DNA of 57,983 bases, counting the filler, from Dirinaria sp. TL-2023a (lineage: Eukaryota), in NCBI GenBank assembly GCA_051941275.1. It is 7 parts of 7 records of this genome, joined end to end, with 100 filler letters (N's around TTAATTAATTAA, not from the genome) between each part and the next. Parts side by side here need not be neighbours in the genome. Positions count along the whole stretch, not along the records: positions 16,620 to 24,824 come from JAVEBF010001216.1; 6 more parts are not named here. One strand, 5' to 3'. The notes under the pieces are model-generated. The model searched no databases, was not told the origin of the DNA, and worked only from the letters and a program-made list of their open reading frames with translations. The position numbers and the translations under genes are program-made. This document shows positions 17,162 through 18,598 of the stretch, in pieces (the first letter of the stretch is position 1; each line of letters begins with the position of its first letter).

Positions 17162-18598
17162 ATGGCAACCTCTGAGATGTCGCCAGGCATTCCAAAACCT
17201 AAAAACTCGTCTGCAGGTTCGACACGCAAATCGATTTTTGCTGCAAACACTGGTTCGGATATCTCTTCTAGAGATGATCTTACCTTGGAACAAGCCATGT
17301 CCAAGTTGAAGTCCGTCGAAGATACGTCAATCAAGCCCGCTCCGACATCCTCGCTTACAAGTACTATGACTACCCCAACATCTTCAAACGTGCCCTCTCT
17401 AAAGATACCAGAGACCGATTCTGAACTGGAACAGCTTGAAGAAATACGTGCAACGCTCCTCGACTTAGGTATCTCTGCCTTTGGCACTGCACCTAATCCC
17501 ATTAAAAGGGAGCAAAAATACAGAAGCGGCCACTCTCCTATCCCCGGCTTTTCGCAAGCCCGAGCAGGTCACATCTCTTCGTACATTAAGAGCCAGGTCG
17601 CCAAAGAGATGCAGCTTCAACGTACTAAATTGCTGGAAACCCTGGATCAAAAGTCATTGCAAAACAACGAGGAACTTGTGTCAATGCTTGCAAAGCATCT
17701 GAATGTTACAACTCAGGCACCACAGGGATCCCAAGAAGACGATGTTCATAGAGCCTCCACGCCAAATCCACAGCCTACTGCCGAAACTGCTCAAGCATCG
17801 ACAAAAATTCTCACCGATATCCGCCCGCAGGACATAGGTTACTTTTACCCTGATTATCAGTCGGAAAAAGAAGACGCCTCTCCAGTACCCAGCGTCGGCA
17901 AATACGTCTATTTCCGAGACGTGTACATGTTTGTAGACTGGGTGAAGGAATTTGCCGCCCAAGGCAAGAACGTCAAGAGCGTTCTTTCCTCTTGCCTTCG
18001 AGGCTCTGCCCTGATATGGTACTTGGTAGAGCTTTCGGAAGAGGATCGTACTAGGCTTTACACCAGCGCTGGCTTGGACGAATGGTACGAGCTGCTTATT
18101 AAAAAATTCAAGCTCGATTCCGGTATAGCCTCGGCTAGACTCATGTCCTCGTCATCCGTCTACACATTAGCTTCCGTCAAGCACACACCGCCGTCTGAAT
18201 GGGCTCAATACATGCTGCAATTAGCGAATGCCACCACCTATTTCCCCTCGACGTACAGTCGCTTAATTATCCTTTGGAACCGACTGGACCCGGAGCTTGC
18301 CGTCAACATCCGCAAACCCACGGAACAAACCACGCTCAGCGAGTTTCTGGAAGAGATGGACCATATGGCCCCGGTATGGTACTCGATTGCTCATCGACGG
18401 TCCTCGCACGCGCGATCGCAGCCACAACAGCAGTACCGGATGTATTACGGGAACCGCCATCTCCAAAACCATCCTGTAAATGATGGACAGCAGCAAGCAC
18501 AGTCTTCGGGCGTCGCATCTGGCCGTGACGATTGGTGGGATGGAGCGGTGGATCAAGGGACATATGAGGAGGACAATGGACATGCCTATGCATTCTGA
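17162..18598 (+). CDS. Stand-alone Ty3/Gypsy Gag (capsid)-like protein, 478 aa, no pol or LTR; candidate domesticated gag
   Basis: IRPQDIGYFYPD...VYFRDVYMFVDWVK...LSSCLRGSALIWY..ELS...W...LIKKFK...WNRLDPEL...PTEQTTLSEFL....W matches the conserved capsid core of ascomycete Ty3/Gypsy Gags. It ends in a clean stop before any Zn-knuckle or protease. Confidence 0.75.
   Translation: MATSEMSPGIPKPKNSSAGSTRKSIFAANTGSDISSRDDLTLEQAMSKLKSVEDTSIKPAPTSSLTSTMTTPTSSNVPSLKIPETDSELEQLEEIRATLLDLGISAFGTAPNPIKREQKYRSGHSPIPGFSQARAGHISSYIKSQVAKEMQLQRTKLLETLDQKSLQNNEELVSMLAKHLNVTTQAPQGSQEDDVHRASTPNPQPTAETAQASTKILTDIRPQDIGYFYPDYQSEKEDASPVPSVGKYVYFRDVYMFVDWVKEFAAQGKNVKSVLSSCLRGSALIWYLVELSEEDRTRLYTSAGLDEWYELLIKKFKLDSGIASARLMSSSSVYTLASVKHTPPSEWAQYMLQLANATTYFPSTYSRLIILWNRLDPELAVNIRKPTEQTTLSEFLEEMDHMAPVWYSIAHRRSSHARSQPQQQYRMYYGNRHLQNHPVNDGQQQAQSSGVASGRDDWWDGAVDQGTYEEDNGHAYAF

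What the first reader, a model, noticed from the sequence alone, without database searches (positions are those of the whole stretch)
17162..18598. Intact stand-alone retrotransposon capsid (Gag) gene: candidate domesticated fungal capsid protein
Seen: a 478-aa uninterrupted ORF with normal base composition. It has a coiled-coil-like N-terminal half, then the motif series PQDIGYFYPD / VYFRDVYMFVDW / CLRGSALIWY / LIKKFK / WNRLDPEL / PTEQTTLSEFL, then a short Q/G/D-rich tail and stop. No protease, RT or integrase follows, no Zn knuckle is present, no flanking direct repeats are visible, and the neighbouring DNA (19.1-19.9 kb) is degraded while this ORF is not. Known: these motifs resemble the capsid region of ascomycete Ty3/Gypsy Gags, and animals have repeatedly domesticated Gypsy capsids (Arc, PEG10, PNMA). 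Inference: a host-co-opted capsid gene (particle-forming, or a restriction factor against active elements), something little described in filamentous fungi.
Basis: partly seen in the sequence, partly recalled or inferred. Interest (0 to 1): 0.8.

Follow-up and report, generated by a model that had tools for sequence, protein, structure and literature searches.

The report
Solo retrotransposon capsid gene in a fungus
This is an intact fungal gene that encodes only the capsid (Gag) part of a Ty3/Gypsy-type retrotransposon, with no trace of the rest of the element nearby; it may have been kept by the host, but that is not yet shown.

Summary
The 478-aa ORF at 17162-18598 (+) is real. Residues ~215-410 are homologous to the Gag region of fungal Ty3/Gypsy chromovirus polyproteins. 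They model confidently as a two-lobed retroviral-type capsid (CA) fold. All 33 PDB representatives with Z>=5, of 48,161 compared, are retroelement capsids or their domesticated derivatives.

No pol, LTR pair, RIP-like decay or other TE debris lies on its contig.

- The window is seven ~8.2-kb contigs joined by artificial N44-TTAATTAATTAA-N44 linkers. The true context is only 16620-24824.
- The missing Zn knuckle is a trait of the whole family, 0 of 153 proteins.
- 19.1-19.9 kb shows no TE homology or RIP signature.

The ORF belongs to a monophyletic clade of six diverged pol-less proteins, 41-60% identical; one is fused to a BIR domain.

Domestication is plausible but unproven. Copy number, synteny, dN/dS and expression could not be tested, and 146 of 155 family proteins lack pol domains anyway.

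Verdict: a genuine solo gag gene and a candidate co-opted Ty3/Gypsy capsid.

The parts
16620..24824 (.). The true contig (8205 nt) that carries the ORF. Everything outside it in the window belongs to other contigs.
   Evidence: Linkers N44-TTAATTAATTAA-N44 lie at 16520-16619 and 24825-24924. The pieces measure 8210, 8209, 8205, 8192, 8191, 8188 and 8188 nt, which means they are sorted by length.
16620..17161 (+). The 542-nt upstream region, running to the contig end. It contains no LTR-like copy of anything downstream.
   Evidence: blastn with word size 7 against 18599-24824 gave only hits at E>=1.4. No Pfam hit in its ORFs.
17162..18598 (+). Solo gag ORF of 478 aa plus stop (P0001).
   Evidence: There is an in-frame stop 9 nt upstream of the ATG. 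P0003 aligns from codon 4 to codon 457.
17162..17533 (+). aa 1-124: S/T-rich N-terminal region, predicted disordered.
   Evidence: pLDDT is mostly below 50. Identity to P0002 and P0003 is 42% and 28%.
17555..17701 (+). aa 132-180: a single long helix, possibly a coiled coil.
   Evidence: AF2 helix 132-180 with pLDDT about 90. It is 59% and 56% identical in P0002 and P0003. Among the 155 family proteins it is detectable only in P0002, P0003 and P0021.
17804..18106 (+). aa 215-315: capsid N-terminal lobe (CA-NTD).
   Evidence: pLDDT is above 90. It matches the Arc N-lobe at Z 6.7, rmsd 2.9 A over 67 residues. It is 59-79% identical across the six-member clade.
18107..18391 (+). aa 316-410: capsid C-terminal lobe (CA-CTD).
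   Evidence: Matches: Arc C-lobe Z 9.7, rmsd 2.9 A over 86 residues; dArc1 C-lobe 9.3; PEG10 CTD 9.1-9.3; Ty1' CA-CTD and Drt2 8.4; MLV CTD 8.1.
18392..18595 (+). aa 411-478: the end of the last helix, then a disordered Q/G/D-rich tail without a CCHC knuckle.
   Evidence: pLDDT falls below 55 from about aa 425. Some positions are invariant across the six-member clade: R412, S414, S415, Q420, P421, Q422, Y429, Q435, D441. No CCHC knuckle.
21953..23059 (+). The only other long ORF on the contig (368 aa). It is a non-TE neighbour gene.
   Evidence: No Pfam hit. Its nearest atlas clusters are Ascomycota hypothetical proteins at 0.96 and 0.95, with leads to ETX_MTX2/aerolysin-type proteins.

Best explanation
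The ORF is a gag-only gene descended from a fungal Ty3/Gypsy (chromovirus-type) retrotransposon.

The protein has four parts: a disordered S/T-rich N-terminus, one long helix (aa 132-180), a complete two-lobed capsid (CA) domain (aa ~215-410), and a short disordered Q-rich tail. It has no nucleocapsid knuckle, protease, RT or integrase. It is separated from any LTR or pol.

Shown:
- Gag/CA ancestry and fold (my confidence about 0.97).
- Solo status on its 8.2-kb contig (about 0.9).
- Membership of a small monophyletic clade of diverged pol-less proteins that keep the CA domain conserved.

Inferred:
- The gene is retained by the host, that is co-opted or on the way to co-option (about 0.45-0.5).
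- It would act through CA-CA contacts. The most plausible mode is co-assembly with the Gag of related active elements, which would poison particle assembly. This is dominant-negative restriction, as with yeast Drt2/p22 or mouse Fv1 (about 0.25-0.3).
- Less likely, it forms particles of its own, as Arc does.
For: SEQUENCE
- phmmer against 1.84 billion representatives found 845 relatives at E<=1e-3. The conserved part is query aa ~200-440.
- Nine of the 155 collected family proteins carry pol-type domains downstream of the homologous region. P0039, P0040, P0058 and P0154 have RT, RNase H, integrase, SH3_Tf2-1 and chromodomain.

FOLD
- The domain model has pLDDT 91.6 and pTM 0.80.
- All 33 chains with Z>=5, of 48,161 compared, are retroelement capsids or domesticated capsids: Copia 9.1, PEG10 9.1, dArc2 9.0, dArc1 9.0 over 151 residues, Arc 8.9, Drt2 8.4, MLV 8.0 over 180 residues spanning both lobes. 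The first unrelated fold scores Z 4.5 at rank 36.

SOLO STATUS
- tblastn with 8 long relatives hits only 17744-18523 in the whole window.
- The same test recovers decayed, frame-shifted pol directly after gag in the control locus L003.
- No LTR-like repeat pair.
- 0 of 44 other ORFs on the contig hit Pfam.
- Non-RIP indices in 15 of 16 500-nt windows of the contig.

RETENTION
- P0001-P0006 form one clade with SH-aLRT 99.
- Overall identity to P0001 is 42-60% (41-59%), but the CA-NTD is 59-79% identical and there are 94 invariant columns.
- The helix is conserved in P0002 and P0003.
- P0003 carries an N-terminal BIR domain at E 8e-14.
- Each close relative was seen on only 1-2 contigs.
- No close gag-pol fusion exists among longer proteins; the best is 31% identical.
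- Codon adaptation is 0.838, against 0.788-0.876 for eight other long ORFs of the window, seven of them Pfam-identified host genes.
- The neighbour gene is not TE-derived.

PRECEDENT
- Drt2 is a domesticated Ty1' Gag CA-CTD that restricts Ty1' (PMC10951436, abstract read).
Against: - No direct evidence of host-level selection. Copy number in the genome, synteny, dN/dS and transcription were all untestable.
- 146 of 155 family proteins lack pol domains. 'Predicted as a pol-less protein' is therefore the default for this family and discriminates poorly.
- The pol-less state of the surrounding 36-row clade is not significant when only pol domains are counted: 0 of 36 against 8 of 100, p=0.079. 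If chromo-only P0018 is counted as pol-derived, p=0.26.
- Purifying selection on CA is equally expected for the Gag of an active element.
- Only 542 nt of upstream sequence exist, so a 5' LTR further upstream cannot be excluded.
- Codon-usage discrimination is weak: the out-of-frame values are 0.786 and 0.811.
- Foldseek gave no match at E<=0.001. Its best was dArc1 at E 0.065, probability 0.98.
- No Pfam or PDB sequence hit, even with a profile.
- The BIR fusion in P0003 rests on one predicted gene model that I could not inspect.
Confidence: 0.45

Rival explanations
1. Orphaned relic. The ORF is a piece of a Ty3/Gypsy element whose pol and LTRs were lost by deletion or rearrangement. It is under no host selection and simply has not yet accumulated a disabling mutation.
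For: - It is homologous to TE Gag.
- Deletion derivatives exist in the family: P0094 has gag, SH3 and chromodomain without RT, and P0018 has gag plus chromodomain.
- L006 shows a partial gag with no pol in 5 kb.
- No evidence of expression or orthology could be obtained.
Against: - There is no pol, LTR or other TE debris anywhere on the 8.2-kb contig. A simple recent truncation would usually leave some.
- The nearest known relative is only 60% identical, and the nearest polyprotein 31-37%. There is no sign of a young source element, though the genome itself could not be searched.
- The whole 478-codon frame is intact, including the weakly conserved N-terminus and tail.
- Six diverged clade members all keep intact CA domains.
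Confidence: 0.3
2. Non-autonomous gag-only LTR retroelement. The gag is kept because its product packages the element's own RNA, while RT and integrase are borrowed in trans from an autonomous chromovirus. The LTRs would lie outside what the contig shows.
For: - Only 542 nt upstream are available before the contig ends.
- Purifying selection on CA fits an active element.
- The family includes internally deleted forms.
Against: - A 3' LTR should lie within the 6.2 kb downstream and match the 5' region. No similarity was found between the upstream 542 nt and anything downstream, even at word size 7.
- No direct-repeat pair brackets the ORF.
- A 2-copy LTR would tend to break a short-read assembly downstream too, and the contig runs on through a non-TE gene.
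- Contig ends in this assembly also cut through ordinary ORFs, so the nearby break is not a sign of a repeat.
- Close relatives appear on 1-2 contigs each.
Confidence: 0.12
3. Arc-like self-assembling host capsid. The protein forms its own particles, for example to package and move RNA between hyphal compartments or cells.
For: - Both CA lobes are complete and match capsid-forming domesticated Gags (dArc1, PNMA2, PEG10) over 150-165 residues.
- The N-terminal long helix could add oligomerisation.
Against: - There is no RNA-binding knuckle or basic tail. The tail is Q/G/D-rich.
- There are no data on assembly.
- No fungal precedent turned up in the searches.
Confidence: 0.06

Closest known systems
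Gag (capsid) of fungal Ty3/Gypsy chromoviruses. The polyproteins found here are P0039, P0040, P0058 and P0154, with the architecture Gag, (PR), RT, RNase H, integrase, SH3_Tf2-1, chromodomain.
   Same: - Homologous over aa ~200-440 at 31-37% identity, E down to 4e-27.
- Same two-lobed CA fold.
- Same lack of a CCHC knuckle.
   Different: - The window's gene has no PR, RT or integrase and no LTRs.
- It has an N-terminal helix region detectable in only 3 other proteins of 155.
- No Pfam gag model (Retrotrans_gag, Ty3_capsid) recognises it or any of the 89 members scanned.
Drt2 of Saccharomyces cerevisiae, a domesticated Ty1' Gag CA-CTD restriction factor (PDB 9rxy; PMC10951436, abstract read), and the Ty1 self-encoded p22/p18.
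   Same: - A fungal, pol-less, gag-derived protein.
- The CTD superposes at Z 8.4, rmsd 3.0 A over 85 residues.
- It offers a plausible shared mechanism through CA-CTD contacts.
   Different: - Drt2 derives from Ty1/Copia and, per the abstract read (PMC10951436), contains the CA C-terminal domain.
- This gene derives from Ty3/Gypsy and keeps both lobes plus an N-terminal extension.
- Restriction is shown for Drt2 and only inferred here.
Animal domesticated Ty3/Gypsy capsids: Arc/dArc, PEG10/RTL, PNMA, MOAP1.
   Same: - Same superfamily of origin (Ty3/Gypsy gag).
- Same bilobed CA fold: Arc C-lobe Z 9.7, dArc1 9.0-9.1 over 150 residues, PNMA2 6.3 over 163 residues.
- Loss of pol.
   Different: - Sequence identity is only 10-15%, so this is an independent lineage.
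- Orthology, selection, expression and assembly are documented for the animal genes. None of those could be tested here.
Crtg12, Crtg13 and Crtg14, the co-opted gag genes of fungi reported by Wang & Han 2021 (PMC8321522, passages read).
   Same: Single-copy, gag-only genes in fungi, proposed as co-opted.
   Different: - Those derive from Ty1/Copia (Crtg12, Crtg13) and Bel-Pao (Crtg14). That paper reports no Ty3/Gypsy-derived co-option in fungi.
- Their status rests on synteny across families, selection and RNA-seq, all of which are missing here.
- I did not see that paper's supplements.

Membership tests
Ty3/Gypsy (chromovirus) Gag / capsid | Sequence homology to the Gag region of polyproteins that carry Ty3/Gypsy-ordered pol (RT, RNase H, integrase) with a chromodomain | tested here: met
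   - E values of 4e-27, 5e-27 and 6e-25 to P0039, P0040 and P0058.
- Their domains were confirmed; P0154 and P0155.
Ty3/Gypsy (chromovirus) Gag / capsid | Two-lobed all-helical retroviral-type CA fold (NTD plus CTD) | tested here: met
   - Model pLDDT 91.6.
- All 33 chains with Z>=5 are capsids, and both lobes are matched by MLV, dArc1, PNMA2, RSV and HIV CA.
- Each lobe is matched separately by the Arc N-lobe and C-lobe.
- Caveat: Foldseek E-values are weak, best 0.065.
Ty3/Gypsy (chromovirus) Gag / capsid | Recognised by the curated gag models (Pfam Retrotrans_gag PF03732, Ty3_capsid PF19259) | tested here: not met
   No gag family was hit at E<=10 for P0001, nor at E<=0.01 for any of 89 members. 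The whole lineage is invisible to these models, so this does not argue against homology.
Ty3/Gypsy (chromovirus) Gag / capsid | CCHC zinc knuckle (nucleocapsid) after CA | tested here: not met
   0 of 153 family proteins have a CCHC-like motif, the complete polyproteins included. This is a lineage trait.
Intact LTR retrotransposon | gag followed by pol and flanked by LTRs | tested here: not met
   - No pol by tblastn at E<=1, with a positive control in L003.
- No LTR pair.
- Caveat: only 542 nt of upstream sequence exist.
Domesticated (co-opted) gag gene, by the criteria used for Arc, PEG10, PNMA, Drt2 and the Crtg genes | Intact gag ORF that has lost pol and LTRs | tested here: met
Domesticated (co-opted) gag gene | Single or low copy in the genome | not testable with these tools
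   - No whole genome is held.
- One copy is present in the 58-kb window.
- Relatives were seen on 1-2 contigs each.
Domesticated (co-opted) gag gene | Orthologues at syntenic loci in related species | not testable with these tools
- The metagenome scan gave only relatives at 31-42% identity.
Domesticated (co-opted) gag gene | Purifying selection (dN/dS below 1) beyond what TE activity explains | not testable with these tools
   - No DNA is available for the close relatives.
- At protein level the CA is much better conserved than the flanks. That is compatible with selection either as a TE or as a host gene.
Domesticated (co-opted) gag gene | Transcription / protein expression | not testable with these tools
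   No sequencing run could be listed. This is no evidence either way.

The most novel reading that the evidence does not exclude
A Ty3/Gypsy capsid gene was co-opted in a lineage of filamentous (possibly lichen-related) ascomycetes. It has since diversified into a small host gene family (P0001-P0006), including a form fused to a BIR domain and a C2H2-like zinc finger. The family would act as a CA-based restriction system against chromoviruses.

This would be the first Ty3/Gypsy-derived gag domestication reported in fungi. It comes from a Gag lineage that Pfam-based screens cannot see.
Probability: 0.4. Interest if true: 0.65.

Novelty: new member of a known kind. Interest (0 to 1): 0.45.

Why it matters
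Gag domestication is well documented in animals (Arc, PEG10, PNMA, Fv1).

In the papers I could read, fungal cases are few:
- three deep co-options derived from Copia or Bel-Pao (PMC8321522, passages read);
- yeast Drt2, derived from Ty1' (PMC10951436, abstract read).

A Ty3/Gypsy-derived case in a filamentous ascomycete would extend the phenomenon to the most abundant LTR superfamily of fungi. It would also give a tractable candidate for a capsid-based transposon restriction factor in organisms otherwise thought to rely on RIP and RNA silencing.

Whatever the outcome on domestication, one result is of practical use. This large Gag family (845 representative clusters) is missed by every Pfam gag model. 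Domain-based TE and co-option screens such as PMC10799480 (passages read) would overlook it.

Tried and rejected
SEARCHES THAT RETURNED NOTHING USABLE
- Whole-genome copy-number search: no genome is held.
- Sequencing runs for expression or DNA occurrence: none was listed and no RNA holder was listed. This is no evidence either way.
- Earlier scan notes by place, sequence and words: nothing.
- PDB sequence searches with the single protein and with an 89-sequence profile: no real hit, only a low-complexity match at E 2.3.
- Foldseek against the PDB, whole model and domain model: capsids lead the list, but nothing reaches E<=0.001.

OTHER TESTS
- Homodimer prediction of aa 125-425: no verdict, score 0.00, controls not run. 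This is neither for nor against self-association.
- Metagenome scan for close relatives with context: 7 loci, all at 31-42% identity and too distant for synteny or dN/dS. L003 served as a positive control for detecting decayed pol.
- Upstream exon carrying a BIR domain, as in P0003: tblastn found nothing convincing outside the ORF; all other hits had E>=0.59.

IDEAS CONSIDERED AND REJECTED
- 'The 36-row clade is a pol-less lineage' as strong evidence: rejected, because p=0.079 on pol domains alone, and separate gag and pol ORFs or fragmentary gene models could explain it.
- 'The missing Zn knuckle is a domestication signature': rejected.
- 'The contig end 542 nt upstream signals a repeat': rejected as an argument, because contig ends here also cut ordinary ORFs.
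- Chance ORF: rejected; expectation is about 3e-7.
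Full report
**1. The observation**

The window holds an uninterrupted ORF at 17162..18598 on the + strand, 478 codons plus a stop.
- The reading frame opens only 9 nt before the ATG.
- With the contig's base composition, an open frame this long is expected about 3e-7 times in the whole window.

**2.

The window is not one piece of chromosome. 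Six identical 100-nt linkers (44 N, TTAATTAATTAA, 44 N) lie at 8211-8310, 16520-16619, 24825-24924, 33117-33216, 41408-41507 and 49696-49795.
- They split the window into pieces of 8210, 8209, 8205, 8192, 8191, 8188 and 8188 nt. These are contigs of a fragmented draft, sorted by length and strung together.
- The ORF's true context is therefore 16620-24824 only: 542 nt upstream and 6.2 kb downstream.
- The other contigs carry ordinary genes: NAT10-type acetyltransferase, GT90, Sec3, SRP40, IQGAP-like RasGAP, IMPDH and MFS.
- Several contig ends cut straight through open frames, for example 29501..33172 and 48348..49751. Breaks in this assembly are therefore not specific to repeats.

**3. What the protein is, by sequence**

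The curated libraries are blind to it.
- Pfam gives only a noise hit (FAD_binding_1, E 0.15).
- PDB sequences give nothing.
- A profile of 89 relatives gives only a low-complexity match at E 2.3.
- None of the 89 relatives hits any gag model.

An exhaustive phmmer search of 1.84 billion representatives nevertheless finds 845 relatives at E<=1e-3, 319 at E<=1e-10 and 26 at E<=1e-30. The shared part is query aa ~200-440.

I scanned all 155 collected family proteins with Pfam (23, 89, 43). Nine carry pol-type domains downstream of the homologous region:
- P0039, P0040, P0058 and P0154 have RT, RNase H, integrase, SH3_Tf2-1 and chromodomain.
- P0155 has RT, RNase H and integrase.
- P0100 has protease and RT.
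- P0036 has protease.
- P0094 has SH3 and chromodomain.
- P0018 has a chromodomain only.

The homologous region sits at the N-terminus of these polyproteins, in the Gag position. The ORF is therefore a Gag of the fungal Ty3/Gypsy chromovirus type, from a lineage that no Pfam gag model covers.

**4. What the protein is, by fold**

With the 89-sequence alignment, AlphaFold2 models aa 220-420 at pLDDT above 95 and a single long helix at aa 132-180 at about 90. The rest (aa 1-124, 186-214 and beyond ~425) is disordered. The domain alone (aa 205-430) gives pLDDT 91.6 and pTM 0.80.

An all-against-representatives structural search of 48,161 chains returns 33 chains with Z>=5, and every one is a retroviral or retrotransposon capsid or a domesticated capsid:
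- Copia CA, Z 9.1
- PEG10 CTD, 9.1 (rmsd 2.8 A over 83 residues)
- dArc2 C-lobe, 9.0
- dArc1 CA, 9.0 (151 residues)
- Arc C-lobe, 8.9
- Drt2, 8.4
- MLV CA, 8.0 (180 residues over both lobes)
- MOAP1, 7.8
- PNMA2, 6.3 (163 residues)
- also RSV, HTLV, EIAV, HERV-K, FIV, HIV and foamy virus CA

The first unrelated fold is at rank 36 with Z 4.5. A second look at Foldseek's top chains matches the two lobes separately: Arc N-lobe Z 6.7 on model residues 40-114, and Arc C-lobe Z 9.7 on 113-207.

There is a caveat. Foldseek itself ranks capsids first but reaches only E 0.065 (probability 0.98), with nothing at E<=0.001. I accept the CA fold because the fold result and the independent sequence link to polyprotein Gag regions agree.

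The language-model atlas also places the protein next to Retrotrans_gag/Ty3_capsid, Fv1 and Arc clusters at 0.87-0.90. These are leads only.

**5. Is it alone?**

- tblastn with eight long relatives at E<=1 hits only 17744-18523 in the entire window. There is no protease, RT, RNase H or integrase remnant.
- The test works. In metagenome locus L003 the same queries find gag at 10001-10387, followed by frame-shifted pol pieces up to 13047.
- Self-comparison of the contig shows four small repeat pairs. None brackets the ORF.
- The 542 nt upstream match nothing downstream, even at word size 7; the best hit has E 1.4.
- None of the 44 other stop-to-stop ORFs of at least 60 aa on the contig hits Pfam at E<=0.01.
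- Dinucleotide indices are non-RIP in 15 of 16 500-nt windows. The thresholds (TpA/ApT above 0.89 and (CpA+TpG)/(ApC+GpT) below 1.03) are recalled, not taken from a call. Only 24120-24619, far from the ORF, is RIP-like.
- The only other long ORF (21953-23059, 368 aa) resembles hypothetical proteins of Ascomycota (atlas 0.96 and 0.95) and is not TE-like.

**6. Features that do not bear on domestication**

- The missing zinc knuckle is a trait of the whole family. 0 of 153 proteins have a CCHC-like motif, complete polyproteins included.
- Being predicted as a pol-less protein is the default in this family: 146 of 155.

**7. Features that do bear on domestication**

*A clade of pol-less proteins.* In a maximum-likelihood tree of 136 CA domains, the window's protein and its five closest relatives (P0002-P0006) form one clade with SH-aLRT 99. 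Nineteen of the 155 proteins were dropped for covering less than 75% of the domain model. The method was IQ-TREE quick search with LG+G4.

*Nesting.* That clade sits inside a 36-row clade (support 97) with no RT-, protease- or integrase-bearing member. This absence is not significant on pol domains alone (0 of 36 against 8 of 100, p=0.079; p=0.26 if the chromo-only P0018 counts). It reaches p=0.0025 only if all proteins of at least 800 aa are counted.

*Conservation pattern within the six-member clade.* Overall identity to P0001 is 42-60%, but conservation differs sharply by region:

| Region | Identity to P0001 |
|---|---|
| CA-NTD | 59-79% |
| CA-CTD | 43-63% |
| Helix, in P0002 / P0003 | 59% / 56% |
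| Disordered N-terminus | 28-42% |

*The N-terminal 200 residues* are detectable in only three other family proteins: P0002, P0003 and P0021.

*A host-domain fusion.* P0003 carries a BIR domain (E 8e-14) and a C2H2-like stretch in front of the shared region. It aligns with the window's ORF from codon 4 onward.

*Low apparent copy number.* Each close relative was seen on 1-2 contigs. The closest long protein in the 90%-clustered database is only 31% identical.

*Codon usage.* Codon adaptation to eight other long ORFs of the window (seven Pfam-identified host genes and one with no Pfam hit) is 0.838, against 0.788-0.876 for those ORFs. The out-of-frame values of 0.786 and 0.811 show that this measure discriminates weakly.

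*Taxon.* One relative, P0020, is annotated as a hypothetical protein of the lichen fungus Physcia stellaris. Together, this suggests an ascomycete host for the window, by inference only.

**8. What could not be tested**

- Copy number: no genome is held.
- Synteny and dN/dS: no DNA is available for the close relatives. The metagenome scan found only relatives at 31-42% identity.
- Expression: no run was listed.
- Self-association: no verdict.

These are exactly the criteria by which co-opted gag genes are defined in the literature (PMC8321522, passages read).

**9. Explanation**

Shown: a genuine, intact, solo gag gene of Ty3/Gypsy chromovirus descent with a complete bilobed CA domain.

Most likely (about 0.45-0.5) it is retained by the host. 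Purifying selection on CA across six diverged pol-less genes, the conserved clade-specific helix, the BIR fusion, the clean non-TE surroundings and the host-like composition all point that way.

If so, the best-supported mechanism is interference through CA-CA contacts with the Gag of related active elements. The fungal precedent is Drt2/p22 (PMC10951436, abstract read; PMC13709905 and PMC12530519 seen only in the search listing). An Arc-like particle function is less likely because the tail is neither basic nor knuckled.

The rivals cannot be excluded with the data at hand:
- an orphaned relic not yet decayed (about 0.3);
- a non-autonomous gag-only retroelement whose LTRs escape the short contig (about 0.12).

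**10. Comparison with what is known, and novelty**

- Wang & Han 2021 report 14 deep gag co-options. Three are in fungi, derived from Copia (Crtg12, Crtg13) and Bel-Pao (Crtg14). They state that no fungal case had been documented before (PMC8321522, passages read; supplements not seen).
- Drt2 is a Ty1'-derived case in yeast.
- A kingdom-wide fungal screen for TE co-option was domain-based and mentions gag only through that paper (PMC10799480, passages read).
- My searches surfaced no Ty3/Gypsy-derived co-opted gag in fungi. This covers only the open-access library searched.

The find is thus a new member of a known kind: a candidate and not a demonstrated domestication. It has the added practical point that the Gag lineage is invisible to current Pfam models.

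Noticed in passing
window 8211-8310, 16520-16619, 24825-24924, 33117-33216, 41408-41507, 49696-49795: There are six identical artificial linkers (N44-TTAATTAATTAA-N44). The window is seven contigs of about 8.2 kb, sorted by length and concatenated. Any inference drawn from 'neighbours' across these points is invalid.
   Followed up: yes
window 21953-23059 (+): A 368-aa ORF with a hydrophobic N-terminus and no Pfam hit. Its nearest atlas clusters are Ascomycota hypothetical proteins (0.96 and 0.95), with weaker leads to ETX_MTX2/aerolysin-type beta-pore-forming proteins at 0.90-0.91.
   Followed up: partly
protein P0003 (593 aa, relative of the ORF): A gag-derived protein with an N-terminal BIR domain (aa 31-98, E 8e-14) and a C2H2-like stretch fused in front of the helix and CA region. 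It is either a host-TE fusion gene or a merged gene model. Its contig could not be inspected.
   Followed up: partly
proteins P0018 (666 aa) and P0094 (1129 aa): These family members have gag plus a chromodomain (P0018), or gag plus SH3_Tf2-1 plus a chromodomain (P0094), with no detectable RT. They are apparent internal-deletion derivatives or novel fusions.
   Followed up: no
window 21258-21394 / 21618-21753 and 21418-21513 / 21788-21883: A diverged (about 72-76% identical) tandem duplication with a period of about 360 nt lies just upstream of the 368-aa ORF.
   Followed up: no
window 24257-24388 / 24585-24716: A 132-nt direct repeat, 95% identical, spaced 328 nt apart at the right end of the contig. 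The surrounding 500-nt window (24120-24619) is the only one on the contig with RIP-like indices: TpA/ApT 2.14 and (CpA+TpG)/(ApC+GpT) 0.84.
   Followed up: no
window 29675-33116 (+): A 1147-aa open frame with no Pfam hit at E<=0.001 that runs into the contig end. It is a large uncharacterised protein on another contig.
   Followed up: no
L003:10001-13047: A metagenome/WGS contig carries a decayed chromovirus. Its gag is 48-58% identical to P0039/P0058 and is followed by frame-shifted PR/RT pieces. I used it as a positive control.
   Followed up: partly
family-wide (155 proteins): A large fungal Gag family (845 representative clusters at E<=1e-3) is not recognised by any Pfam gag model and lacks a CCHC knuckle throughout. 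It is a candidate for a new profile.
   Followed up: partly
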